Counted from the stretch's first letter, positions 8,435 through 46,697 are shown. The stretch: 53,407 nt of DNA from Alphaproteobacteria bacterium (GCA_017958225.1 JAGDDD010000041.1:1-53407), one strand, 5' to 3'. The notes: generated by a model from the letters alone, not told the origin. Made by a program: numbers and translations.

Positions 8435-9439
8435 TTACTCTCGACTATAAACCGACAAAGATTTTTCAGCACGTTGCAGCATGGAGTCTATGGTATCGTC
8501 CTTGCTTTGCAGAACAGCCTTACCAAACAAGATTTTTTGTTTGCTGGACATTTCCTGTAATTTCAAATACAGGCGATCGGCCACAACCGACAGATTATCA
8601 TAAGGCGTTTCCGGCAACAACAGGGCAAACTCCACATCGTCAATACGCCCGAGGATATCCATTTCGCGTATGCAAAGTTGGCAAGCCTTGATGACCTGTT
8701 TAATGGCTTGCTCGCCCGTTTCAAAATCTTGATCTTGCCCCAACAAGCGCAGATAATCCAGTTTCAGCACCAGTAAGGACAAATGGCGGCCATAACGCAC
8801 AGCGCGTCGCACTTCTTGCTCGGCCACATTCATAAAGGCGGTGCGTTTCAACACGCCCGTCAGCACATCCACCGACGTTATGTGCTGTATTTTCTGTTCC
8901 AACTGCTTGCGTTTGGACACGTCAAAGCCGACCGCGCGTATTTCCGTCAATTCATTGTTGGGGCTATACATCAGCCGATACGTCCACGATACCCAGACAG
9001 GTGTGTTATCTTTGCGACGGTTGGGCAAATCTACATTGATGTATAACTTGGGATTGGCGACGATTTTTTGCACTAAGTCCGGCTCGTTGGCACGTTTGCG
9101 TTCGGGAATAGGCAGAATCGTTTCCTGAAGTGTGTGGCCGACCATCTCATCGTGGGTATAGCCAAAGAACGATTCGGCGTGGTCGTTGGTGTAAGTAATC
9201 ACACCCTTGGGATCAAAGGCCACAATCAGGCTGTCGCCGGTCGGAGCCGCCAGGTCGTCAATAATATCCTCGGAGGTCAAATGCTCGATGGTCTGCATCT
9301 TCTCGGCCAATTCCTGCCCGATATCTTTTAATGTCTTGCTCGTCTTTTTATAGCGCAGATATGTGTGCCACCAGCCCAGTATAACAAGCAGAACCAGGGC
9401 GCTCGACAGTATTAAAGGCAAATACGTTTCTATAAACAT
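8435..9439 (-). CDS. TM-PAS-GGDEF protein with a degenerate active site
   Basis: N-terminal TM; PAS ([17 protein letters not shown]); DVLTGVLKR; [14 protein letters not shown]; GGAG RBS. Confidence 0.85.
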
Positions 9440-9551
9440 TTTATTCTCCGACTTTTTATTGATTACAAAAGAACGAAGTTTTACGCAACAAGAAATTATT
9501 GACATTTTTCTTTTTTTGGTCCATTTTCTTACAAAGCGTTTGAAGGCCGAC

Positions 9552-10985
9552 ATGACACTGAAAGATGTAACAAAAACAATTGAAAAAGCCTATCCGTATG
9601 GGTTTGATACACCCGTAGCGACGGATACGGTGCCTGTGGGTTTGTCGGCTGATATTATTCGTCAGATTTCCGCCATTAAAGGCGAGCCACAATGGCTGTT
9701 AGATTTTCGTCTGAAAGCCTTTGAACATTGGCAGGGGATGAAGGAGCCTCATTGGGGAAAGGTTAAATACGCGCCGATTGATTATCAAAAGATTTGTTAT
9801 TATGCCGCCCCGAAAGCCGCGCCTAAATCGTTGGATGAAGTTGATCCAGCTGTTTTGGCCACCTATGAAAAGTTGGGGATTCCCGTGCGTGAGCAAAAAG
9901 CCTTGCAAGGTATTGTGGCGGTGGATGCGGTGTTTGACAGTGTGTCGGTCGCAACAACCTATCAAGAATCTTTGGCGCAAAAGGGCATTATCTTTTGTTC
10001 GTTTTCTCAAGCGGTCAAAAAATATCCGGACCTGGTCAAGCAATATTTGGGCTCGGTTGTGCCCTATACAGATAACTTTTTTGCCTGTTTAAACAGTGCG
10101 GTTTTTTCGGATGGCTCGTTTGTCTATATTCCCAAAGGCGTGCGCTGCCCGATGGAATTGTCCAGTTATTTTCGCATAAATGCGCGTAATTTCGGCCAGT
10201 TTGAGCGCACCCTGATTGTATGCGAAGAAGACGCCTATGTCAGTTATTTGGAAGGTTGCACCGCTCCGCAACGCGATGAAAATCAACTGCATGCGGCGAT
10301 TGTGGAAATTGTGGTAAAAGACAGGGGCGAGGTCAAGTATTCCACCGTGCAAAACTGGTATCCGGGCGATGAGACGGGCAAGGGCGGTATTTATAACTTT
10401 GTGACCAAAAGAGGTATTTGCCACACAGCGGCTAAACTGTCATGGACACAGGTAGAGACCGGCTCGGCGATTACATGGAAATATCCCAGCTGTATTTTAA
10501 AAGGCGATGATGCCGTCGGCGTCTTTTATTCTGTGGCACTAACCAATCATTATCAGCAGGCGGACACGGGCACCAAGATGATTCACCTGGGCAAGCGGAC
10601 GTCTTCTACCATTATTTCCAAAGGTATTTCGGCCGGCCATGCGCAACAGACTTATCGCGGGTTGGTGAAAATCGCGCCTCACGCCGAAGGCGCCCGCAAT
10701 TTTTCGCGTTGCGACAGTTTGCTCATCGGGCAACAATGTGGCGCGCATACGGTGCCTGTTTTACAAAATCAAAATCCGACAGCGCAGTTGGAGCACGAAG
10801 CTTCAACCAGTAAAATCAGCGAAGAACAACTGTTCTATTGTCAACAGCGCGGCTTGTCGGAAGAAGAGGCGGTGGCCTTGGTGGTCAATGGTTTCTGTAA
10901 AGAAGTTATGCAACAGTTGCCCTTGGAGTTTGCGATTGAAGCGTCGCGCCTTATTGGTGTCAATTTGGAAGGAAGTGTAGGATAA
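9552..10985 (+). CDS. sufB: Fe-S cluster assembly protein SufB
   Basis: [36 protein letters not shown]. Confidence 0.97.
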
Positions 10986-11719
10986 TGCTGGATATTGTTG
11001 ATTTATATGCCCGTGTGGAGCAAAAAGAAATCTTAAAGGGGCTGTCTTTACGTATTAAAGAAGGCGAAGTCCATGCGATTATGGGGCCCAACGGGTCGGG
11101 CAAAAGCACGTTAGCGCAGGTGTTGGCAGGGCATCCGGCCTATCAGGTCACGCAAGGGCAGGTGCAATTTTGTGGCAAAGATTTGCTGAAAATGTCCGTT
11201 TCGGAAAGAGCGTGCCAAGGTCTGTTTTTAGGCTTTCAATATCCGGTAGAATTATCGGGTGTGCCTTATGCGACCTTTTTGAAACAATCGTTGGCAGCTT
11301 ATCGAAAAGCCAGAGGACAAGAGCCGTTGGACGCACCGTCTTTTATTCGCTATTTGAAGTTGCGTGCGCAGGCGGTCGGCGTGTCGGATGAAATGTTAAA
11401 ACGCCCCGTCAATGTCGGTTTTTCCGGTGGCGAAAAGAAAAGGTTAGAGGTCTTGCAAATGGCGGTGTTAGAGCCGAAATTGTGCATCTTGGATGAGTTG
11501 GATTCGGGCTTGGATATTGACGCTTTGCGGCAATTGTCCGAAGCGGTCAATGTGATGCGCGATGCGCACAGAAGTTTCTTGCTGATTACGCACTATGATC
11601 GCTTGTTGCAATATATTCAGCCGGATGTTGTTCATGTGATGAAGGATGGCAAGATTATCGAATCCGGAGATAAAACCTTGGCTCAAAAATTGGAAGAAAA
11701 AGGGTATGCCGATTATTAA
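10985..11719 (+). CDS. sufC: Fe-S assembly ATPase SufC
   Basis: GPNGSGKST, GFSGGEKKR, LDELDSGLD. Confidence 0.97.
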   Translation: MLDIVDLYARVEQKEILKGLSLRIKEGEVHAIMGPNGSGKSTLAQVLAGHPAYQVTQGQVQFCGKDLLKMSVSERACQGLFLGFQYPVELSGVPYATFLKQSLAAYRKARGQEPLDAPSFIRYLKLRAQAVGVSDEMLKRPVNVGFSGGEKKRLEVLQMAVLEPKLCILDELDSGLDIDALRQLSEAVNVMRDAHRSFLLITHYDRLLQYIQPDVVHVMKDGKIIESGDKTLAQKLEEKGYADY

Positions 11720-39028: not shown

Positions 39029-40339
39029 TTATCGTGACGCCTCTTTTGTTGGTGTTTTTTTTGCTTTTCTTTGTTGGACTTTATTTTTGATGAAATTGAA
39101 AAGTTTACTATGCGTTTGAGGTAGGGCTGTTGTGGTCTTTATTGCTTGTCTTTTTATGTTGAGCGTATATTCATTTTCCAAGAAGTTCATTAATTGAAGG
39201 AGATTAGGAACTCTTGCAATGCCGTCTTTTCCTAGAGCGCTCGTTGCTACGGTGGCCTCATAAAATTGTTGAGGTGTTACCGAAGGATTGATTTGCCGGG
39301 CCAAAACAAACAAACCGGCAATATAAGGTGTTTTCCATGAGTAATCGGCACGAGCATAATGAACAAACTTATCTGATCCTATCTCTGATGCTGTGGTTAT
39401 ATGTCCAGCAGGAAATGCCAATAACCCCTTTTTGGCTTCTTTTTTTAGATGAGGTAATGCAATATTTACAAACCATCGGGGGAGAAAATAGTTTTTGCCT
39501 TCTTGAGTTGGTTGATTGTACTTCCTATCTAATGCAAATGTCCAAAATGATGTTCCTTCAAAACAAGATGCATTGAGTACAGCCAGTCCATTTTGTTGGG
39601 CATGTTCCATGGCCTTGGCCCATTCGCCCGTTTTGTCCCGTTTGTGCATTGCTCCCCAAGATATAGAGACAACTTGAATGGGTTTTTCACCTTTTTGAAC
39701 CAATTCTTTATTGATTTCAATAATCCGTTCCAGCGCGCGAGCATAATTGTGGGAAGATCCTTTTTTATCATAATCTTTTGAATTCATAGAGATAAACTTG
39801 TTGTTAGCATCAACGTGATTATTGGCGGCGAAATAATATAATTTAGCATCCGGGGCGACACCGCAGGTTTTGCCGACGGCCAAAGATGCCACGGCCGAGC
39901 CGTGCATAGATCCATGCATAGTTTCATGGTTCTCTTCATAGTGTGGCTGATCAAAACCAATTTCTTCATAATGCACCAAGTTGTCGTGATATTCCGTATG
40001 ATCAGATAGGAACTGATCTATAATGGCAATAGATAAACCCTTTCCGGTCAGTCCTTTTTTATGAAGAGCTTGCACATTCAATAGTCGCTTGCCTAATGCC
40101 ATAGTTTCTTTTGGGTCAAAATCCTTCGGCATTTTTGCTAGATCTGTTGGCCAAATTGTGTTTTCGTCAAATTCGATCAATTGAGGATCATAGGCGGACA
40201 AATCCAGTTGAGAGCAATCTACGCCCTTCAACCGTAAAGTAGCATAATCATCTTGAGATATTTGTTCGGGTGTTGGCAAATCATTAGCTTGCACATGTTT
40301 GTTGTTCCAAAAAGGATAAGGTGCTCTTAATTTCATCAT
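39029..40339 (-). CDS. S8 (subtilisin-like) serine peptidase
   Basis: IAIID, HGSAVAS, GVAPDA, VSISWG, SWKTPYIAG; AGGAG RBS. Confidence 0.85.
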   Translation of the reverse strand: MMKLRAPYPFWNNKHVQANDLPTPEQISQDDYATLRLKGVDCSQLDLSAYDPQLIEFDENTIWPTDLAKMPKDFDPKETMALGKRLLNVQALHKKGLTGKGLSIAIIDQFLSDHTEYHDNLVHYEEIGFDQPHYEENHETMHGSMHGSAVASLAVGKTCGVAPDAKLYYFAANNHVDANNKFISMNSKDYDKKGSSHNYARALERIIEINKELVQKGEKPIQVVSISWGAMHKRDKTGEWAKAMEHAQQNGLAVLNASCFEGTSFWTFALDRKYNQPTQEGKNYFLPRWFVNIALPHLKKEAKKGLLAFPAGHITTASEIGSDKFVHYARADYSWKTPYIAGLFVLARQINPSVTPQQFYEATVATSALGKDGIARVPNLLQLMNFLENEYTLNIKRQAIKTTTALPQTHSKLFNFIKNKVQQRKAKKTPTKEASR

Positions 40340-40387
40340 TTCTCTCCTGTCGAAATTATAAACCGCATTATACCACACTCTTGCGCC

Positions 40388-40406
40388 AAAAGCAAGGTGT
40401 TTTTAT
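40388..40406. repeat. 19-bp direct repeat copy 2 (includes S8 gene -35 box)
   Basis: AAAAGCAAGGTGTTTTTAT; minus strand TTGCTT-17-TATAAT. Confidence 0.8.
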
Positions 40407-40485
40407 GGGGGGGGGGACACCTGTGCAATTTTTTCTTGCGTGGGTGGGCAGATTTATATACACTGGAAAAAGAAGAGGAGGATGT

Positions 40486-41355
40486 ATGCCTAAAGTTTAT
40501 TTTACCCGCGATATCAGCCCGCAAGGCCTGTTAAAACTTTACCATCAAGTCAATCAAGACATTACCGGCAAGGTGGTTATCAAGTTCCATACCGGCGAAC
40601 CGCACGGACCCAACCTGTTGCCGCGCGATATGGTCAAAGCCTTGATAGATGATGTGCCGGGCAGTGTGTTGGCCGATACTAATGTATATTACGAAAGCCC
40701 ACGTCAAACGACAGCCGGCCATCGAGAGACGATACATATCAATGGTTGGGATAAGTTCGCCACTGTCGATATCTTGGATGAAGAGGGGGCTGTGATGCTG
40801 CCGGTGCATGGCGGCAAGCACTTTACGGCCATGTCCATGGGCTCACACATTAAAAATTATGATTCTATGATAGTCTTGACGCACTTTAAGGGTCATACGA
40901 TGGGCGGTTTTGGCGGCTCTATTAAAAATATTGCTATCGGTTGCGCGGACGGCAAAATCGGCAAGAAAATGCTGCACACTTATCCCGGACAAGACCAATG
41001 GTCCATCTGCAAAAAGCCTTTTATGGAAAATATGGTAGAGTCTGCCAAAGCCACGGTAGATTACTTTGCTCCGCACATCACTTTTTTGAACGTTCTGCGT
41101 CGTATGTCCGTTGATTGTGATTGTATGGGCGTTGATGCGGCCGAGCCGACGATACGCGATATCGGTATTTTGGCCTCTACGGATATTTTGGCGGTGGATC
41201 AAGCCTCAATTGATTTGGTCTATCAAGCGCCGGCAAAGGAACTGCACGATATTAAAAAGCGTATTGAATCGCGCGAGGGTTTGCATCAGTTGGTTTATGG
41301 TGCTAAAATCGGTTTAGGCTCACGCAAATACGAACTAATTGACATGGATAAATAA
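40486..41355 (+). CDS. DUF362 family Fe-S protein
   Basis: KFHTGE, THFKGH.MGGFGG.IKN..IGC, DCDC, DILAVDQA. Confidence 0.88.
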   Translation: MPKVYFTRDISPQGLLKLYHQVNQDITGKVVIKFHTGEPHGPNLLPRDMVKALIDDVPGSVLADTNVYYESPRQTTAGHRETIHINGWDKFATVDILDEEGAVMLPVHGGKHFTAMSMGSHIKNYDSMIVLTHFKGHTMGGFGGSIKNIAIGCADGKIGKKMLHTYPGQDQWSICKKPFMENMVESAKATVDYFAPHITFLNVLRRMSVDCDCMGVDAAEPTIRDIGILASTDILAVDQASIDLVYQAPAKELHDIKKRIESREGLHQLVYGAKIGLGSRKYELIDMDK

Positions 41356-41366
41356 AGGAGAGAACA

Positions 41367-42158
41367 ATGGCGAAAAAAGCACGAAAGGCAAAAAAGAAAA
41401 AAGAAACTCGGACGTCAAAGAAAACCAGCTTGCGCAAAAAGATTACGTGGGGTGTCGTCTTTGTCCTTTTGGCAGGTGCGTTGGCAATTTATTTTTTCGG
41501 CGGAGAGAATGGGCGTCCGATCGGTCAGTATAGGCGCTATACCGATGCAATTGATAATGAATCTTCTGGTACGCATGAGACATTTGATGGTATGTTCTAT
41601 AAGCCCATTATTTACCTGTATCCCAAAAGTGAGATGAAGGTCTCTGTTGAGTTGGGACGCCCGGACAAAGTAACCCACACCTATCCGAAATACAACGACG
41701 GATGGCAAGTGGTGGCGCAACCCAATGGCGATTTGACAGATCCTAAAACAGGGCGGTATTACTATGCTTTGTATTGGGAAGGCGAGAATACCAGGGCGCC
41801 TGCGCCTATGGAAGAGGGCTTTATTGTGCGTGGCGAAGATACCATCAACTTTTTGGAAACGCAGTTGGCAAAACTGGGCTTGAACGAGCGCGAGGCCGAA
41901 GAGTTTATCGTTTATTGGCTGCCCAAATTGGAAAGCAGCCCTTATAACTATATTCGCTTTCAGACAAGGCGAGAGCAGGATCGGCATATGCCCTTAATTA
42001 TCAAGCCTTTCCCCAAGACGATTATACGCGTTATGATGGAATACGCCAATTTGCAAAAGCCTATCAAGGTCACTGAGCAGGTGCTGCCGGAAACGCCGGC
42101 GCGTGACGGCTTTACGGTGGTGGAGTGGGGCGCAACCGAATTGCCCGCACAACAATAG
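41367..42158 (+). CDS. Uncharacterised KPxIYLYP-motif protein, N-terminal membrane anchor (paralog A)
   Basis: Basic N-terminus plus TM; KPIIYLYP, TYP, YALYWEG, FIVYWLP, GFTVVEWG. Confidence 0.85.
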   Translation: MAKKARKAKKKKETRTSKKTSLRKKITWGVVFVLLAGALAIYFFGGENGRPIGQYRRYTDAIDNESSGTHETFDGMFYKPIIYLYPKSEMKVSVELGRPDKVTHTYPKYNDGWQVVAQPNGDLTDPKTGRYYYALYWEGENTRAPAPMEEGFIVRGEDTINFLETQLAKLGLNEREAEEFIVYWLPKLESSPYNYIRFQTRREQDRHMPLIIKPFPKTIIRVMMEYANLQKPIKVTEQVLPETPARDGFTVVEWGATELPAQQ

Positions 42159-42166
42159 TTGATTTT
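42108..42166. repeat. 59-bp direct repeat copy 1
   Basis: 57/59 identical to 42923-42981. Confidence 0.9.
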
Positions 42167-42187
42167 GGGGCTGTCAGCGCCTATAAT
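42159..42187 (+). promoter_or_regulatory. Sigma70-type promoter
   Basis: TTGATT-17-TATAAT. Confidence 0.65.
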
Positions 42188-42220
42188 AAGCCTAGGCTAA
42201 CGTGAGATAAGGAGAGGACT

Positions 42221-42973
42221 ATGGCAAAACGCAAAGCAAAACCACCTTTGAAGAAAAAGATTATTATCGCTTTAGTGTTCTTGGGTGTGATTTGTGGCGG
42301 CCTGTGGTATTGGTTATACGATGGTTGCCCTACGGGGGAACATAAATGTTGTTATCTGTCGGCCAGTGGAGATGGAGGACACAGTTGCCATTGCACATCG
42401 TTGGAGTGTATGGATGCTAAACCCGTCATTTATCTGTATCCGACTGAAACGACAGATGTGTTTGTGCAACTCGGACGACCGGAAAATCTGACGCACACTT
42501 ATCCACAATACAACGGCGGTTGGCAAGTTACCGCTCAACCTAATGGCGATTTGACGGACGACAACACTGGACGGCACTATTATTCTTTGTATTGGGAAGG
42601 TGTGCATACGGGCATTCAATCACAACAGGATGGCTTTATTGTGGCCGGTCCGGATACCGTGCGCTTTTTGGAAGAAAAGTTGGCGTGGTTTGGCTTGACA
42701 GAGCGTGAAGCGCAAGAGTTTATTATTTATTGGCTGCCCAGGTTGGAGAGCAATGCGTATAACTTTATTCGTTTCCAAACGAGGGCGGAAATAGACGAGA
42801 ATATGCCGCTGATTATCACGCCTCAGCCGAATACGCTGATACGGGTTATGATGAGTTTTCGCCCTGCCGAACCGGGGGAACAGGTGCCGGCGCAAATCTT
42901 GCCGCCTATGCCTTTCCGCAATGGCTTTACGGTGGTGGAGTGGGGCGCGACCGAATTGCCCGCAAAACAATAG
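42221..42973 (+). CDS. Uncharacterised KPxIYLYP-motif protein with Cys-rich segment (paralog B)
   Basis: Basic N-terminus plus TM; 6-Cys segment; KPVIYLYP, YSLYWEG, FIIYWLP, GFTVVEWG. Confidence 0.85.
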   Translation: MAKRKAKPPLKKKIIIALVFLGVICGGLWYWLYDGCPTGEHKCCYLSASGDGGHSCHCTSLECMDAKPVIYLYPTETTDVFVQLGRPENLTHTYPQYNGGWQVTAQPNGDLTDDNTGRHYYSLYWEGVHTGIQSQQDGFIVAGPDTVRFLEEKLAWFGLTEREAQEFIIYWLPRLESNAYNFIRFQTRAEIDENMPLIITPQPNTLIRVMMSFRPAEPGEQVPAQILPPMPFRNGFTVVEWGATELPAKQ

Positions 42974-43035: not shown

Positions 43036-44166
43036 ATGGCAGATGAAACGTTTGCAGATTTGATGAGCCGCGCGACTTTTAAATATTCAAAAGCCGGCGA
43101 TTTACTTATTTGTGTAGATGGTGCTACCTTCAAGTTAAATCAAAAGAAAAATAAAACGCTGCTTGAGTTATCGGTGGAACAAGGTTGGGATATCGGGCAG
43201 AATGCGATGCCACCGGAAGTCGCTAAGTGGATTAATGACTTTTTAGCGGCCTATAAAGAGGGTAAATTGTGGGCAAATGCTCTTGTTTCTGCTATGGCGA
43301 AATTAAAACGTAATGCCGAAACAGGGAGCACGGAGACTTTTTATGAGGTGGCGCTTTCCGATCCACATGTTCTTGCTACATTAGATCCACGCATTCTTAC
43401 CACTTTACCTCCAAGTGATCTGGCCAGGTTGGATCCGACAGTCCTTGCTACTTTGGGTTCGCGCTCTGTGGGGCCGTCTGGGCCTCGTGACCTGGGACCG
43501 GTAAGCCGGTTCCTGTCTGTGAATGACAAAGGTCAGTTGGCTGTTAAAATGGTTTACCTGGGAACGGACGAAGATGGGGTTGTAAGATATGGCATGCCTG
43601 GCGATTATCTGGGTATCGAAAGCTCGTGGTATCCCGGCAAAGATAAACAGATTGGCTATGATGTAGATAACGTGTTGGGTTTGCCGGATGAATCTTCACA
43701 AAATGATCAGACTGTGATTGAATTGCCCTATACGGAAACACCCTCTGCGGAGAATAATCAATCTACCAATTCCAATACATCCACTCCGGGATCCCCGACA
43801 GGCACTGGTGGTAATGGCAAGATCAATCTTGTGGATAATAAAGCACAAGATATGACGAAACCAGAAAACAATTCTGGTGCGCGTATCGTATCGGGTCAGA
43901 CTGTGGCAAAACAGGCTCAAAAAGATGAGAAACATACGAAGAAGGGTAAGCGACTTCTTACTAGCGAACAGAGAAAGGCGCGTCGTCGGAAACCAAGACA
44001 GACAAGGAACAATCCTTCCAAGGATGATAAGGCTCAAAAAAGGTTGCTCGCCGTTCTCACGGCACACTATCGGAAAGAGGGAACAATCACCAGCAATCAA
44101 AGAGTGGTAGGTATGGCCAACAGGGGCGGGAAGCTTATACCAAAAGTAGCAAAAGTTACGCGCTGA
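43036..44166 (+). CDS. Hypothetical protein with 8-aa repeats and a basic C-terminus
   Basis: AAAGGAG RBS, own promoter and terminator; no family recognised. Confidence 0.8.
   Translation: MADETFADLMSRATFKYSKAGDLLICVDGATFKLNQKKNKTLLELSVEQGWDIGQNAMPPEVAKWINDFLAAYKEGKLWANALVSAMAKLKRNAETGSTETFYEVALSDPHVLATLDPRILTTLPPSDLARLDPTVLATLGSRSVGPSGPRDLGPVSRFLSVNDKGQLAVKMVYLGTDEDGVVRYGMPGDYLGIESSWYPGKDKQIGYDVDNVLGLPDESSQNDQTVIELPYTETPSAENNQSTNSNTSTPGSPTGTGGNGKINLVDNKAQDMTKPENNSGARIVSGQTVAKQAQKDEKHTKKGKRLLTSEQRKARRRKPRQTRNNPSKDDKAQKRLLAVLTAHYRKEGTITSNQRVVGMANRGGKLIPKVAKVTR
43360..43455 (+). repeat. 4 x 24-bp degenerate in-frame tandem repeat
   Basis: DPHVLATL/DPRILTTL/PPSDLARL/DPTVLATL. Confidence 0.8.
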
Positions 44167-44183
44167 TGGTCCTTGTCAATTAT

Positions 44184-44217
44184 AAAAAAACACCCTCACA
44201 ATGAGGGTGTTTTTTTT
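44184..44217. terminator. Bidirectional intrinsic terminator
   Basis: A7-CACCCTCA-caa-TGAGGGTG-T8. Confidence 0.9.
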
Positions 44218-44247
44218 ACGGGTAATATGAGCTAGTTTTAAATTATG

Positions 44248-44841
44248 TCACTCATATTCTTTAGGTGGTCGTTTCCCTGGGTTCGCGCGGTGTGCTGCAC
44301 GCAGGCGTTTTTTGTTTTGAGATTTTTGTTTGCAATAGTCTTTATAAGCGTCTTCAAGCACTTGTCTTGTTTCCAGCTTGCTAGCGGCCCTTCCGATCAA
44401 GAATTCGGCTTGGTCTTTGATTTGTGCCTTTTGTTCCTCTGGATTTTTATATCTTTTACGGTTCTGTTCGGCTATGTGGTAGGCACCTATTCTCCACCTT
44501 TCATACTGTGTTGGCTCCTTTTGTGCGTGAAAGGCTTTTTTAGCACCTCTTACACGGTTCTGTACATACCTGTCACGATTCTTTACTTCACGAGAATAAC
44601 GGTAATCTTCTATAATATCAATATCTTGTAAAAATTGTGTATCAGTTGCCTGTTGCGTCAAGTCTTCCACTAGTTCTGTGTAGGTTCCTTTCCCTGCCTT
44701 AGAGAGGATTTCAGCTCGTAACTCAATAGCTTTTTGTAGTTCTTCTTGTGTAAAAGTCACTTTTTGGGCTTTTTTGTCCATGTATTTTTGCACGGATGGT
44801 TTAGAATTTTGTTCGTTGTGTCTGACTGGTTTTACTGTCAT
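44248..44841 (-). CDS. Hypothetical basic protein, array member 4 (197 aa)
   Basis: Shared leader; FTQEELQKAIELRAEI; AYKDYCK. Confidence 0.8.
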   Translation of the reverse strand: MTVKPVRHNEQNSKPSVQKYMDKKAQKVTFTQEELQKAIELRAEILSKAGKGTYTELVEDLTQQATDTQFLQDIDIIEDYRYSREVKNRDRYVQNRVRGAKKAFHAQKEPTQYERWRIGAYHIAEQNRKRYKNPEEQKAQIKDQAEFLIGRAASKLETRQVLEDAYKDYCKQKSQNKKRLRAAHRANPGKRPPKEYE

Positions 44842-44845
44842 ATTG

Positions 44846-44864
44846 ATTTCTCCTATGTGTTGTT
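44846..44864 (-). repeat. Shared leader/RBS repeat AACAACACATAGGAGAAAT
   Basis: Identical to 45203-45221; variants at 46032-46050 and 45673-45691; all end 4 nt before the ATG. Confidence 0.85.
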
Positions 44865-44877
44865 AATTTTTTGAGGG

Positions 44878-45198
44878 TTAGTCTTTTACAAAGTTTTTAT
44901 TCATTGGGTTGGTTTTTGGGACGTAATGACCCACCCTATTTATCTGCACCTGATCAAAGAAGGGGCGTTCTTTTTTGGGCAGTTTAAGATACTCACTGTA
45001 AGTTTTTAAAAGATTCGCAGCAAATTTCTTGTCTTTTTGAGCTTTTTCAGTAAATTCCTTACCTTTCTTCTCGCAGATATCTTCGTATACATCTTGATGA
45101 AGTGCGGTATTCTCAAGGCTATCGATGGTGGCACGAGCGTAGATATGCGCGAGCCAGATAATAGCATCTTCCAGTTTAGTTGTCTTTTTGCCTCTCAT
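44878..45198 (-). CDS. Hypothetical protein, array member 3 (106 aa)
   Basis: Shared leader; LEDAIIWLAHI; KAQKDKKFA..LLKTYSEYLKLP. Confidence 0.8.
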   Translation of the reverse strand: MRGKKTTKLEDAIIWLAHIYARATIDSLENTALHQDVYEDICEKKGKEFTEKAQKDKKFAANLLKTYSEYLKLPKKERPFFDQVQINRVGHYVPKTNPMNKNFVKD

Positions 45199-45227
45199 GT
45201 CAATTTCTCCTATGTGTTGTTGATTGT

Positions 45228-45668
45228 TTAAGATTTTTGATGTCCGCCATCGTCAAGGTATTGCAATTGGGGCATTTGATGCTTCTTAAGGCGTCGCGGT
45301 TGCGTTTTCTTCACGCCTCGTGCCTGAGCCTTCTTCACGCCGCGCACTTGAGTTTTCTTTTGGCCTTGTTTTTGAGCCCGCTTCACACGCCGTTTTTGGG
45401 CCTTCTTTTTGCATCTTACGCGCCGTCCTTTGCCACGTCGCGTGGGGGAGCCCTGTTCATCCTCTTCTGAGAACTCTTGTTCTTCGGCGGCTTTTGCTAG
45501 CAAGATTAGGCGTATCTTTGTGTATTGTTTTTCCCATTCTTCCTGATACTTTCCCTTTTCCCAGTTCAGTTTATCTGCGCAGGCTTGATCGGCAAGCTCT
45601 TTGGCTCGCGCGTCAATAATTGTTTCTAACATAGGGTTATGTAATTCTTTCTTTGCCTTCTTTGGCAT
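45228..45668 (-). CDS. Hypothetical protein with a Lys/Arg repeat tail, array member 2 (146 aa)
   Basis: Degenerate leader; LETIIDARAKEL; LAKAAEEQEF; basic 8-aa repeats. Confidence 0.75.
   Translation of the reverse strand: MPKKAKKELHNPMLETIIDARAKELADQACADKLNWEKGKYQEEWEKQYTKIRLILLAKAAEEQEFSEEDEQGSPTRRGKGRRVRCKKKAQKRRVKRAQKQGQKKTQVRGVKKAQARGVKKTQPRRLKKHQMPQLQYLDDGGHQKS
45283..45402 (-). repeat. 5 x 24-bp degenerate tandem repeat
   Basis: Plus-strand units such as TTCTTCACGCCTCGTGCCTGAGCC and TTCTTCACGCCGCGCACTTGAGTT. Confidence 0.8.
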
Positions 45669-45724
45669 ATCAGTTTCCCTAATATCTTGTTTGGATTGGT
45701 CAGAAAACTCAAATAACGCGGGTT

Positions 45725-46027
45725 CTACATTGCATTTTGTGATTGTTGGTTTTGTCTTTTAAAATCGAACTTTTTCAAGTTTATAAGTCTCCGCTTATCC
45801 GCCTCACGTCCTTCGAGAGGGATTTTGCAGTGATCTCTATAAGCTTGTACCGCCCAATATGCGTAATCAGGATTTTTCTGTGCTTTGGACATTAAGGATC
45901 TAACTGTCCATGGGAACGCCTTCGCCTGTTTAGCTTTCTCTGCGGATGCCGCCCCAACATTAATCTCAGCTCGAAAACGAATGGCTTCCTTTAATTCTTC
46001 TTGTGTGTAGTTATCTTTTTTTGTCAT
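45725..46027 (-). CDS. Hypothetical protein, array member 1 (100 aa)
   Basis: Start at MTKKDN after the shared leader; YTQEELKEAIRFRAEI; KAQKNPDYA..AVQAYRDHCKIP. Confidence 0.8.
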   Translation of the reverse strand: MTKKDNYTQEELKEAIRFRAEINVGAASAEKAKQAKAFPWTVRSLMSKAQKNPDYAYWAVQAYRDHCKIPLEGREADKRRLINLKKFDFKRQNQQSQNAM

Positions 46028-46057
46028 GTCTGTTTCTCCTATATGTTGTTCTTTAAT

Positions 46058-46146
46058 TGGTGCGGAAAGCCGGAATCGAACCGGCACGGGAGCAAAGTCC
46101 CAACAGATTTTAAGTCTGTTGCGTCTACCTATTCCGCCATATCCGC
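46058..46146 (-). tRNA. tRNA-Leu(TAA)
   Basis: GCGGATATGGCGGAATAGGTAGACGC ACAGA-CTTAAAA-TCTGT ... GCCGGTTCGATTCCGGC...ACCA. Confidence 0.94.
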
Positions 46147-46244
46147 AACCACAATGCATATTTTACTCGTTTTTCGCAAAAAAGTAAAGTCTTTTTTGAA
46201 AAAACTTGCCTTTTTGTTTTTTATATGCTATTCCTGCAGTTAAG

Positions 46245-46697
46245 ATGAAGTTGAAAATCAAATATTTACCCAATTATTTGCCCGACTGGCCGCGTTTAGC
46301 GTTTGCTCATCCGGGCGATTCCGGACTGGATTTGCGTGCCGCCATAGCCGAGCCTTTGGTGTTAAAGGCCGGACAGCGTGCTTTGGTGCCCAATGGGGTC
46401 CAAATGGAGATGGAAGCGGATAGCAGTGACTATGAAGTGCAAATACGCCCGCGTTCCGGTTTGGCGGCTAAAGCCGGTTTGTTTGTGCTTAACACGCCGG
46501 GCACCATAGATTGGGGCTATCGCGGAGAATATAAGACCATTTTATTTAATTCCAGCACAGAAGATGTGACTATTCAGCCGGGGGATCGTATCTCTCAAGC
46601 GGTGGTTTGCCCGATTGTCCGCCCGCAAATCGAGGAAGTGACCGATATGTCTGCAACGCAACGCGGCGACAAGGGCTTTGGATCTTCGGGAGTGTAA
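46245..46697 (+). CDS. dut: dUTP diphosphatase
   Basis: SGLDL, RPRSGLA, GTIDWGYRGE, RISQ, RGDKGFGSSG (all five motifs). Confidence 0.96.
   Translation: MKLKIKYLPNYLPDWPRLAFAHPGDSGLDLRAAIAEPLVLKAGQRALVPNGVQMEMEADSSDYEVQIRPRSGLAAKAGLFVLNTPGTIDWGYRGEYKTILFNSSTEDVTIQPGDRISQAVVCPIVRPQIEEVTDMSATQRGDKGFGSSGV

What the first reader, a model, noticed from the sequence alone, without database searches (positions are those of the whole stretch)
44248..46146. tRNA-Leu-driven array of four diverged small basic paralogs, each with the same leader: best candidate for a new system
Seen: four minus-strand genes start 30 nt after the tRNA CCA, with no terminator until 44217 and a TTTACT-17-TAAAAT promoter upstream of the tRNA. 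Each ATG is preceded in identical register by AACAACA(C/T)ATAGGAGAAA (two copies 19/19 identical, one 17/19, one 13/19). The proteins share a faint pattern, L..AI..RA.I ... KA.K...A.....Y.DY.K (TQEELKEAIRFRAEI vs TQEELQKAIELRAEI; KAQKNPDYA vs KAQKDKKFA; AYRDHCK vs AYKDYCK vs TYSEYLK). DNA similarity survives at 45966-46006 vs 44711-44751, and the 197-aa member may hold two copies of the module. The leaders are more conserved than the coding sequences. Inference: a rapidly diversifying, highly expressed cassette family (nucleic-acid binders, anti-phage/anti-toxin proteins or effectors) using a tRNA promoter. The leader may serve as a recombination or co-regulation site.
Basis: partly seen in the sequence, partly recalled or inferred. 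Interest (0 to 1): 0.75.

Follow-up and report, generated by a model that had tools for sequence, protein, structure and literature searches.

The report
Strain-variable orphan gene array behind tRNA-Leu
Four small, basic proteins found only in one gut bacterial species are encoded directly behind a leucine tRNA gene, each with nearly the same ribosome-binding leader, and strains differ in how many they carry; what the proteins do is unknown.

Summary
tRNA-Leu(UAA) at 46058-46146(-) is followed after 30 nt by four same-strand ORFs of 100, 146, 106 and 197 aa. The only terminator lies at 44184-44216. Three ORFs carry the same 18-nt leader, which occurs nowhere else in the 0.91-Mb genome; the fourth has a 14/18 copy in register.

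The ORFs look like real genes. The annotated frame is the only codon-positive frame, and allelic variants keep their frames open. Paralogy is only partly supported: ORF1-ORF3 and ORF1-ORF4 pass shuffle tests, and ORF2 joins mainly through its leader.

No homologue was found in any protein, family, phage, plasmid or structure search, or in the 36-79 family genomes searched per protein. In relatives, 29 of 30 copies of this tRNA carry their own terminator within 90 nt, so the array sits inside a tRNA transcription unit.

Strains differ. Two metagenome runs lack exactly one leader-to-leader unit (ORF3) and carry a diverged ORF4 core. A database protein shows an ORF3-type gene directly behind the tRNA.

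My reading: fast-evolving orphan genes, probably co-transcribed with the tRNA, reshuffled by recombination between leaders. Function is unknown; nucleic-acid binding is a guess. tRNA-mRNA linkage is common in this genome, and the leader recurs before unrelated genes elsewhere.

The parts
46160..46188 (-). sigma-70-like promoter TTTACT-17-TAAAAT upstream of the tRNA
   Evidence: 9 of 12 matches. The -10 element ends 13 nt before the tRNA 5' end. This is a consensus match only.
46058..46146 (-). tRNA-Leu, anticodon UAA, with encoded CCA
   Evidence: ARAGORN; Rfam RF00005 at 61 bits. It is 83-99% identical in 58 of 60 other family genomes.
46028..46057 (-). Leader 1: the 30-nt gap between the tRNA and ORF1, containing the 18-mer at 46033-46050
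   Evidence: Predicted unstructured, MFE 0 kcal/mol. No hairpin plus T-run in the first 90 nt after the tRNA.
45725..46027 (-). ORF1: 100 aa, pI 9.85
   Evidence: The only database match is itself (P0002). It shares the TQEEL..AI..RAEI motif with ORF4.
45669..45724 (-). Leader 2: a diverged leader copy (18-mer-like stretch at 45674-45691, 14/18) with a predicted hairpin over the Shine-Dalgarno sequence and the AUG
   Evidence: MFE -9.7 kcal/mol, z -3.0; 2 of 200 shuffles fold as well.
45228..45668 (-). ORF2: 146 aa, pI 10.2, with a conserved N-terminal part and a Lys/Arg/Gln-rich repetitive tail
   Evidence: Allelic variant P0004 is 73% identical: 55 of 60 residues in positions 5-64, and about 60% in the tail with 3 in-frame indels.
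45199..45227 (-). Leader 3, containing the 18-mer at 45204-45221
   Evidence: Predicted unstructured.
44878..45198 (-). ORF3: 106 aa, pI 9.4. Predicted three-helix bundle (residues 8-71) with a disordered tail
   Evidence: AlphaFold2 from a single sequence: pLDDT 73, pTM 0.62. Absent from the X4/X5 strain. A 96%-identical variant sits directly behind the tRNA in P0005.
44842..44877 (-). Leader 4, containing the 18-mer at 44847-44864
44248..44841 (-). ORF4: 197 aa, pI 9.7, predicted all-helical at low confidence
   Evidence: The only matches are itself, in 5.8 bn clusters and 1.84 bn representatives. Its interior, 44287-44739, is replaced by same-length sequence under 80% identical in X4/X5.
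44184..44216 (.). Bidirectional intrinsic terminator (15-nt arms, 3-nt loop, A-run and T-run), shared with the convergent 376-aa gene
   Evidence: inverted repeat I1, 100% complementary.: -12.1 kcal/mol, the only such site on the minus strand between 46057 and 44100.

Best explanation
This is a species-restricted, strain-variable tandem array of four genuine but orphan protein-coding genes. It sits between tRNA-Leu(UAA) and the first terminator downstream.

Shown: the four ORFs are in the coding frame and lie tightly packed on one strand. There is no terminator, and no room for a promoter, between the tRNA and ORF1. Each ORF is preceded in the same register by a copy of one leader made of an A/C-rich stretch, AGGAGA, an 8-nt spacer and ATG. 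Relatives end this tRNA with its own terminator. Natural strains differ by whole leader-to-leader units and by a replaced ORF4 core.

Inferred:
1. The array is transcribed from the tRNA promoter as a tRNA-mRNA co-transcript. The tRNA is cut out by the usual tRNA-processing nucleases.
2. The unstructured leaders give efficient translation of ORF1, ORF3 and ORF4. ORF2's diverged leader folds over its own start and probably lowers its translation.
3. The array grew by tandem duplication of a leader-plus-gene unit followed by very fast protein divergence. The leaders are kept alike by selection for translation, by gene conversion, or both.
4. The leader repeats are the substrates of homologous recombination that deletes, duplicates or reorders genes.

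Function (weakest step, about 35%): abundant small helical proteins with basic, partly disordered tails that bind nucleic acid (nucleoid, RNA or ribosome). Their fast turnover suggests a role in some genetic conflict rather than in housekeeping.
For: Anatomy.

Coding:
- The annotated frame scores +0.087 to +0.165 in all four ORFs, and all 20 alternative frames score negative. The 581 reference ORFs have mean 0.253, sd 0.066.
- Independent gene calls exist in the protein database: P0001, P0002, P0003.
- ORF2 variant P0004 keeps an open frame through 3 in-frame indels, with 55/60 identity in its N-terminal part against about 60% in the tail.
- ORF3 folds as a confident three-helix bundle from a single sequence (pTM 0.62).

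Leader:
- 3 exact copies against 0.09 expected.
- The only 3 hits in the genome at <=1 mismatch. At <=2 mismatches there are 4 hits, and at <=4 there are 31, which include ORF2's.
- 1 hit in 79 other family genomes, against 2 hits for the reversed control.
- Leaders 1, 3 and 4 have MFE 0 to -2 kcal/mol; leader 2 has -9.7.

Paralogy.

Placement inside the tRNA unit: 29 of 30 tRNA-Leu(UAA) copies in 29 relatives' loci have a hairpin plus T-run within 90 nt. G000 has none until 44190.

Lineage restriction:
- ORF4 matched nothing in 60 relatives, 36 of them in the family. Two E~0.004-0.008 hits contain stops and are not counted.
- ORF1 0/79. ORF2-type 0/79. ORF3-type matched only the translated tRNA part.

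Strain variation:
- Joint 44865->45223 skips 357 nt, which equals the D1 repeat spacing.
- Joint 44286->44740 is 'same length, diverged'. Each joint rests on one contig in X4 and one in X5, two runs of one study.
- P0005 reads tRNA, then leader, then an ORF3-type protein with 102/106 identity.

Relaxed or diversifying evolution: among the SNPs that one search listed, ettA has 7 synonymous and 0 nonsynonymous, ORF2 has 3 and 3, and ORF4 has 1 and 1.
Against: - There is no RNA evidence: no RNA run was listed, so co-transcription and expression level are inferences.
- The terminator motif (GCACCC...GGGTG plus T-run) is common behind tRNAs in this genome. The distal terminator therefore cannot be shown to be the tRNA's original one, and it also serves the convergent 376-aa gene.
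- Protein-level paralogy fails for 3 of 6 pairs. 'Duplication and divergence' of all four genes rests mainly on the leaders.
- The same 26-nt leader pattern stands in front of rplL, phage genes and other genes in 13 metagenome stretches and 2 viral contigs. Convergence on an optimal initiation region could explain part of the leader identity.
- The X4/X5 evidence comes from one contig per run, at 80% minimum likeness, in two runs of one study. The SNP counts use only the 40 of 481 differences that the tool displayed.
- Codon usage is in the low tail of the genome and GC is 0.38-0.45 against 0.473. This fits foreign origin as well as youth.
- Nucleic-acid binding has no direct support. The ORF4 model is poor (pLDDT 51) and no fold or family match exists.
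Confidence: 0.55

Rival explanations
1. The array is left-over cargo of a mobile element (phage, satellite or integrative element) that once integrated at the 3' side of tRNA-Leu(UAA). The repeated leader would be the element's own promoter-proximal or RBS module, as in phages that repeat one 5' region before successive early genes.
For: - In relative G010, a 586-aa tyrosine integrase (Phage_integrase, E 8e-13) lies about 420 nt beyond the same tRNA and its terminator.
- The sequence downstream of this tRNA differs between relatives, even where dut-tRNA synteny is kept (4 of 4 genus-g11 loci).
- The array has atypical GC and codon usage.
- A phage contig with a terminase (L133/L134) repeats a 72-nt promoter-plus-leader module before two genes. 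Its last 26 nt are identical to ORF3's leader.
Against: - There is no integrase in the window. The genome's only two tyrosine recombinases are on other contigs.
- No direct repeat of the tRNA 3' end exists anywhere in the genome.
- The array lies before the terminator rather than after it.
- No PHROG match reached E 0.02. There were no tblastn matches for ORF1, ORF3 or ORF4 in 50,697 phage records and no blastn match in plasmids.
- The phage contig is G+C-rich and shares no protein with the window.
Confidence: 0.2
2. The ORFs are young or de novo reading frames with little or no function. They are tolerated because they lie in DNA that is transcribed anyway by read-through from a strong tRNA promoter.
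For: - No homologue was found anywhere.
- Divergence is very fast, with presence/absence differences between strains.
- Nonsynonymous changes are as common as synonymous ones among the listed SNPs.
- The sequences are low-complexity, lysine-rich and A-rich.
- The ORF4 model is poor.
Against: - Strong Shine-Dalgarno sequences at optimal spacing are kept before three genes.
- 90% of the 1.84 kb is coding on one strand.
- ORF2's N-terminal part is 92% conserved beside a tail at about 60%, and the frame survives three indels.
- ORF3 has a confident fold and is 96% conserved in a different array position.
- A genome of about 1 Mb is under strong deletion pressure (general knowledge about reduced genomes).
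Confidence: 0.12
3. The proteins are exported conflict or host-interaction factors, for example substrates of the organism's type IV secretion machinery, recognised through their positively charged C-terminal tails. The array would then be a contingency locus under diversifying selection.
For: - The genome encodes a VirB4-type ATPase and two VirD4/TraG-type coupling proteins.
- All four proteins, and the neighbouring 376-aa protein, end in basic, probably disordered tails.
- The genes turn over and diverge at strain level.
- The neighbouring genes (the 376-aa gene and the 263/250-aa tandem paralogues) are also lineage-specific and variable.
Against: - There is no signal peptide and no similarity to any known effector.
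- The link between a basic C-terminus and type IV secretion is recalled, not tested.
- The secretion genes may belong to conjugative elements.
- The genes are not linked: the secretion genes are on contigs C10, C16 and C42.
Confidence: 0.1
4. The ORFs are not genes. They would be chance open frames in an A-rich spacer, and the repeats would be a non-coding element.
For: No homologues and no family matches.
Against: - Frame-specific codon signal in all four ORFs.
- Shine-Dalgarno plus ATG in register four times.
- Frames are preserved in diverged alleles, and the ORF4 core is replaced by sequence of the same length.
- Confident ORF3 fold.
Confidence: 0.03

Closest known systems
E. coli tyrT operon with its distal tpr gene (a small protamine-like protein) and the rtT repeats
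   Same: A tRNA transcription unit whose distal part carries repeated DNA and encodes a small, very basic protein that is 'part of tyrT transcript'. I saw this in a Table 2 passage of PMC3141248 and in a passage of bioRxiv 10.1101/2024.07.17.603846. The function of that protein is also still unclear.
   Different: From recall, not from any call: tpr is a single peptide of about 30 aa inside 178-bp repeats. Here there are four ORFs of 100-197 aa, each with its own strong Shine-Dalgarno leader. No sequence comparison with Tpr was made, and strain-level reshuffling of tpr is not known to me.
tRNA-mRNA operons such as thrU-tyrU-glyT-thrT-tufB of E. coli (recalled), and the tRNA-to-gene pairs in this same genome
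   Same: A protein gene starts a few nucleotides after a tRNA with no terminator between them. In this genome: tRNA-Leu(UAG)->trigger-factor-like gene at +27, tRNA-Leu(CAG)->exonuclease-like gene at +16, tRNA-Leu(GAG)->response regulator at +20, tRNA-Val->IF-1-like gene at +92 (the gene names are my reading of the printed N-termini).
   Different: Those partners are conserved housekeeping genes. Here the partners are orphans, the linkage is absent in all 29 relatives' loci examined, and the genes come as a variable tandem array.
Integron gene-cassette arrays
   Same: Promoterless small genes in one orientation are expressed from a single upstream promoter. Array content differs between strains by whole units, and many cassettes are orphans.
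   Different: There is no integron integrase and no attC-like inverted repeats between the genes. The repeated element lies at the 5' end of each gene and is a translation-initiation region. Rearrangement is best explained by homologous recombination, not site-specific recombination.
tRNA-linked genomic islets and integrated elements
   Same: Variable, compositionally atypical, lineage-specific DNA sits at the 3' side of a tRNA gene. A relative has an integrase at the same tRNA.
   Different: There is no integrase, no att repeat and no mobility genes. The DNA lies between the tRNA and the terminator.

Membership tests
tRNA-mRNA co-transcription unit (tyrT-tpr / tufB-operon type) | tRNA and ORF on the same strand with no terminator between them | tested here: met
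   The gap is 30 nt. There is no hairpin plus T-run until 44190, and no minus-strand terminator-like site in the scan.
tRNA-mRNA co-transcription unit (tyrT-tpr / tufB-operon type) | No independent promoter for the ORF | tested here: inconclusive
   A promoter for ORF1 would have to lie inside the tRNA gene. The scan lists none between 46146 and 46027, but it does list weak 9-of-12 sites inside ORF3 and ORF4. A consensus scan cannot exclude a promoter.
tRNA-mRNA co-transcription unit (tyrT-tpr / tufB-operon type) | A transcript spanning the tRNA and the ORF is observed | not testable with these tools
   No RNA run was listed for this stretch. All four runs laid were DNA contigs.
tRNA-mRNA co-transcription unit (tyrT-tpr / tufB-operon type) | Sequence homology of the product to E. 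coli Tpr | not tested
   No Tpr sequence was fetched. Pfam and NCBIfam gave no family for any of the four proteins.
Integron cassette array | IntI-type tyrosine recombinase next to the array | tested here: not met
   PF00589 matches only at C16:17130-17636 and C20:3836-4345, with none on contig C39. The genome is 85% complete.
Integron cassette array | attC imperfect inverted repeat at each cassette boundary | tested here: not met
   The only inverted repeats in 44100-46300 are the terminator, one 76% pair 250 nt apart, and one upstream of the tRNA.
tRNA-integrated mobile element or genomic island | Integrase gene at the tRNA-proximal end | tested here: not met
   The integrase is present in relative G010.
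tRNA-integrated mobile element or genomic island | Direct repeat of the tRNA 3' end (attR) at the far border | tested here: not met
   blastn-short of the tRNA plus flanks against the whole genome found no second copy of the 3' part. Only the leader repeats and other tRNAs matched.
tRNA-integrated mobile element or genomic island | Atypical composition and absence from relatives | tested here: met
   GC is 0.38-0.45 against a genome value of 0.473. Codon score is below or near the genome's 5th percentile for three ORFs. The genes are absent from the relatives searched.
Known anti-phage defence or toxin-antitoxin proteins (PADLOC models) | Match to a model of a known or candidate defence protein | tested here: not met
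   0 families at E <= 0.1 for all four proteins and three neighbours.
Histone-like or H1-like basic nucleoid proteins | Match to a curated family of such proteins | tested here: not met
   Pfam and NCBIfam: no family above cut-off for any of the four. Only composition is alike: pI 9.4-10.2 and the KKAQK/RGVKK repeats of ORF2.
Tandem paralogue family (all four genes homologous) | Pairwise similarity beyond composition | tested here: inconclusive
   3 of 6 pairs fall at or below 13/1000 shuffles and 3 of 6 do not. All four leaders align in register, with 20 invariant columns of 48.

The most novel reading that the evidence does not exclude
The locus is a contingency-type cassette array in a reduced-genome gut symbiont. 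One short leader would serve both as a high-efficiency translation start and as the homology patch for recombination that adds, drops and reorders fast-evolving small basic proteins. The whole set would be expressed by hitch-hiking on a tRNA promoter. The proteins would act in a genetic conflict, for example binding foreign nucleic acid or acting on a partner or host cell. That would make this a previously undescribed kind of variable defence or interaction module.
Probability: 0.15. Interest if true: 0.75.

Novelty: new variant of a known kind. Interest (0 to 1): 0.45.

Why it matters
Reduced genomes of about 1 Mb usually lose everything dispensable. It is therefore notable that this one keeps four orphan genes behind a tRNA promoter with strong ribosome-binding sites.

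The locus shows concretely how new genes can borrow the expression signals of a tRNA unit. It also shows how a repeated translation leader can make a gene array plastic between strains.

If the proteins turn out to bind nucleic acid or to act in phage, partner or host conflict, they would found a new protein family in an uncultured group of animal-gut Alphaproteobacteria. If not, the locus is still a clean natural example of rapid birth, divergence and loss of taxonomically restricted genes.

Tried and rejected
Homology and family searches that found nothing beyond the genes themselves or their allelic variants:
- Pfam, PHROGs, PADLOC, NCBIfam and PDB sequences for ORF4.
- The 5.8-bn cluster search for ORF4 and ORF1; phmmer of ORF4 against 1.84 bn representatives.
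- Metagenome contigs with ORF4 peptides: 594 pattern hits, none confirmed.
- tblastn of ORF4, ORF1 and ORF3 against phages; blastn of the array against plasmids. ORF2 was not searched against phages.
- ESM Atlas for ORF4 (best TM 0.36) and ORF2 (best score 0.77, below the lead threshold).

Structure:
- The ORF4 model was too poor to search (pLDDT 51).
- The ORF3 model found no Foldseek match at E <= 0.001 in PDB or BFVD. VIA-align gave at best Z 5.2, generic helical hairpins.

Ideas rejected:
- An internal duplication in ORF4 (E 0.61).
- Kinship between the basic C-terminus of the 376-aa neighbour and the four ORFs (67-460 of 500 shuffles score as high).
- ORFs rich in TTA codons that depend on the adjacent tRNA-Leu(UAA): TTA is 7 of 33 Leu codons (21%) against 18.5% genome-wide.
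- The leader as a family-wide element: 1 hit in 79 genomes against 2 control hits, and that hit precedes nothing related.

Expression and empty site:
- No RNA holder was listed for the stretch, so nothing can be said about expression.
- One X2 contig joins 44215 to 46056, which looks like an empty site (tRNA directly followed by the terminator). Only 30 nt lie on one side, and relatives carry similar terminators. It may come from another organism and is not used as evidence.

Calls that could not be used:
- The listing of cluster members could not be made because the database was switched off. Accessions and contig counts of the variants are therefore known only.
- A literature search with a badly formed term failed and was not repeated. 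I make no claim that such arrays are absent from print.
Full report
**Setting.** The window is contig C39 of a 914,852-bp, 42-contig assembly that is 85% complete with GC 47.3%. Its EttA-type ABC-F protein is 75-83% identical to those of many genomes labelled as uncultured Alphaproteobacteria from ruminant and other animal guts. Family relatives have genomes of 0.7-2 Mb. Reduced-genome gut Alphaproteobacteria of this general kind are described in PMC12306168 (abstract and passages seen). I did not test which named lineage this genome belongs to.

**What is there.**
- tRNA-Leu(UAA) lies at 46058-46146 on the minus strand (Rfam 61 bits).
- It is preceded by TTTACT-17-TAAAAT at 46188-46160.
- Thirty nucleotides after the CCA end, ORF1 starts (100 aa). 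ORF2 (146 aa), ORF3 (106 aa) and ORF4 (197 aa) follow after gaps of 56, 29 and 36 nt.
- Coding sequence fills 1659 of the 1841 nt between the tRNA and the terminator.
- The only hairpin plus T-run on that strand is the perfect 15-nt inverted repeat at 44184-44216. It also ends the convergent 376-aa gene.
- The proteins have pI 9.4-10.2, are strongly hydrophilic and have no hydrophobic N-terminus.

**The leader.**
- AACAACAYATAGGAGAAA occurs three times in the window against 0.09 expected.
- These are the only hits in the genome at <=1 mismatch. At <=2 mismatches there is one more hit, not before a gene. At <=4 mismatches there are 31 hits, including ORF2's copy in exact register.
- Aligned on the ATG, the four leaders share 20 invariant columns of 48.
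- Around ORF1, ORF3 and ORF4 the similarity runs for 46 nt at 72-80%.
- The core AGGAGAAA-N3-7-ATG is a common ribosome-binding site in this genome, with 21 cases. Only the upstream A/C-rich part and the exact spacing are array-specific.
- Leaders 1, 3 and 4 are predicted to be unstructured. Leader 2's substitutions create a hairpin that pairs part of its Shine-Dalgarno sequence with the AU of its AUG (-9.7 kcal/mol; 2 of 200 shuffles fold as well).
- In 79 other family genomes the 18-mer occurs once, before an unrelated 633-aa gene. The reversed control occurs twice.
- Across public metagenome contigs, the 26-nt pattern with ATG occurs in 13 stretches, and in 2 viral contigs. In the 14 of these 15 stretches whose contig continues past the ATG it stands at the start of an open frame unrelated to the window's genes. 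These include four ribosomal protein L7/L12-type genes, a repeated phage gene, and two successive genes of a terminase-bearing phage contig that repeats a 72-nt promoter-plus-leader module.

The leader is therefore unique and repeated within this genome. It is also a sequence that evolution reaches repeatedly as a strong initiation region.

**Are they genes, and are they paralogues?**
- A codon log-likelihood trained on 581 long ORFs of the genome is positive in the annotated frame of all four ORFs (0.087-0.165). It is negative in all five other frames of each. The values sit in the low tail of the genome (mean 0.253; 5th percentile 0.127), and leucine codon choice is atypical.
- The protein database holds independent calls of ORF1, ORF2 and ORF4, each matching only itself.
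- It also holds two informative variants. P0004 is an ORF2 allele: 55 of 60 residues are identical in the N-terminal part, and the basic tail is about 60% identical with three in-frame indels. P0005 contains an ORF3 allele with 102 of 106 residues identical.
- ORF3 alone gives a confident three-helix bundle (residues 8-71; pLDDT 73, pTM 0.62) with a disordered tail. ORF4 is predicted helical but at low confidence.
- Pairwise shuffle tests support ORF1-ORF3 (4/1000), ORF1-ORF4 (3/1000) and weakly ORF2-ORF3 (13/1000). The other three pairs fail.
- ORF1 and ORF4 share TQEEL.(E/K)AI..RAEI and 72% DNA identity over 58 nt.
- A two-module ORF4 is not supported.

**Comparative placement.**
- The same tRNA is found in 58 of 60 other family genomes.
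- In 29 loci holding 30 copies, 29 copies have a hairpin plus T-run starting 20-66 nt after the tRNA. The one miss has a visibly imperfect hairpin.
- None of these loci has a ribosome-binding site or an ORF in the position seen here.
- The divergent dut-tRNA pair is kept in four of four genus-g11 loci, but what follows the tRNA differs. In G010 it is a tyrosine integrase.
- None of the four proteins is found in the family genomes searched. ORF4: 0 of 60 relatives at a credible level. ORF1: 0/79. ORF2-type: 0/79. ORF3-type: only the translated tRNA part matches.
- The own genome has no further copy, no integrase on this contig and no repeat of the tRNA 3' end.
- Within this genome a tRNA followed closely by a gene is not unusual. 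Eleven of 39 tRNAs lack a nearby terminator by my rule, and four of the five tRNA-Leu genes have an ORF starting 16-30 nt downstream.

**Variation between strains.** Fourteen DNA runs from six studies of animal-gut metagenomes hold part of the stretch. I laid four of them.
- X1 and X2 carry pieces identical to the window.
- X4 and X5 (one study) carry a strain 1-3% different in the flanks. In it one contig per run joins 44865 to 45223, skipping 357 nt. That is exactly the spacing of the leader repeats, so ORF3 with one leader is absent.
- The same contigs replace 44287-44739, the ORF4 core, with sequence of the same length that is under 80% identical. The first 126 nt of that gene region differ at only 2 sites.
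- P0005 begins with the translated tRNA gene, continues through a leader of the same length as leader 1, and runs into the ORF3-type protein. In that strain an ORF3-type gene therefore occupies the first position.
- All three differences have their borders at leaders.
- Of the 40 differences the tool listed out of 481, I classified 31 positions taken from the X4/X5 rows. ettA has 7 synonymous and 0 nonsynonymous changes. ORF2 has 3 and 3, ORF4 has 1 and 1, and the 376-aa neighbour has 5 and 6. These numbers are small and selected by the tool.

**Interpretation.** The data fit an array of real, fast-evolving, taxonomically restricted genes that lies inside the tRNA-Leu(UAA) transcription unit and is reshaped by recombination between its repeated leaders. 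Co-transcription, high expression and processing are inferred from the anatomy and from established knowledge of tRNA operons, not observed.

The mosaic pattern deserves note: leaders and 5' ends are nearly identical beside strongly diverged cores, both between paralogues and between alleles. It suggests gene conversion or repeated recombination at the 5' ends, together with selection on the initiation region.

Function is open. Composition and the predicted helical-core-plus-basic-tail build favour nucleic-acid binding. The strain-level turnover, and the equally variable neighbours, hint at a conflict-related role. The genome's VirB4 and two VirD4-type proteins leave export possible. A remnant of a mobile element remains a serious rival.

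**Comparison with known systems.**
- The nearest textbook parallel is the E. coli tyrT operon, whose distal part encodes the small protamine-like Tpr.
- tRNA-mRNA operons in general are known and are frequent in this very genome.
- Integron arrays resemble it in logic, but their defining integrase and attC sites are absent.
- A tRNA-linked island resembles it in place and composition, but integrase and att repeats are absent.

I therefore rate it a new variant of known kinds, carrying a protein family with no detectable relatives.

Noticed in passing
window 41367-42158 and 42221-42973 (+): Two tandem paralogues (263 and 250 aa, 52% identical) have a basic N-terminus, one predicted membrane helix and a conserved C-terminal domain. 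No Pfam, PHROG, NCBIfam or PADLOC family matched. In runs X4 and X5, contigs join 41399 to 42281 (skipping 881 nt, with 39 other letters between), so copy number or arrangement varies between strains.
   Followed up: partly
window 43036-44166 (+): A 376-aa orphan protein lies convergent with the array and shares its terminator. It has a low-complexity Ser/Thr/Asn/Gly-rich centre and a basic C-terminus. Among the listed X4/X5 differences, 6 are nonsynonymous and 5 synonymous. It is not related to the four ORFs.
   Followed up: partly
G000 contigs C10:29461-29545, C42:66004-66090, C39:19917-20001: Three other tRNA-Leu genes are each followed within 16-27 nt by a same-strand protein gene (trigger-factor-like, 3'-5' exonuclease-like and response regulator, by their printed N-termini). 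tRNA-Val is followed at +92 by an IF-1-like gene and tRNA-Glu at +106 by an HU/IHF-like gene. tRNA-mRNA operons seem to be a habit of this compact genome.
   Followed up: partly
L015 (G031:C1:278997-282095): In one relative the tRNA-Leu(UAA) gene is present twice, 1.33 kb apart, each copy with a nearly identical terminator and downstream sequence.
   Followed up: no
L037 (G010:C15) 9358-11118(-); also L020, L021, L029 just after the tRNA terminator: A 586-aa tyrosine integrase (DUF6538 plus Phage_integrase) lies about 420 nt beyond tRNA-Leu(UAA) in relative G010. Short tandem motifs directly after the terminator in three relatives' loci look like recombinase-binding repeats. This tRNA is an integration site in the family.
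   Followed up: partly
L133/L134 (one metagenome contig of 14,859 nt), repeats at L134 3327-3398 and 4001-4072: A G+C-rich phage-like contig with a large-terminase-like ORF repeats a 72-nt promoter-plus-leader module (90% identical) before two successive small genes. The last 26 nt are identical to the ORF3 leader of the window. The contig also carries GGGTCGGG-type repeat clusters.
   Followed up: partly
G000 C16:31514-32041, C10:45151-46731, C42:66446-67843: A genome of about 0.9 Mb encodes a VirB4-type ATPase and two VirD4/TraG-type coupling proteins. One coupling-protein gene lies just upstream of tRNA-Leu(CAG).
   Followed up: no
window 39029-40378 (-) and 40321-41355 (+): A subtilase-family protein (GC about 0.39-0.42) and a DUF362 protein lie between obg and the orphan genes. 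Together with the orphans they form a roughly 7-kb stretch not seen next to dut or ettA in the relatives' loci examined.
   Followed up: no
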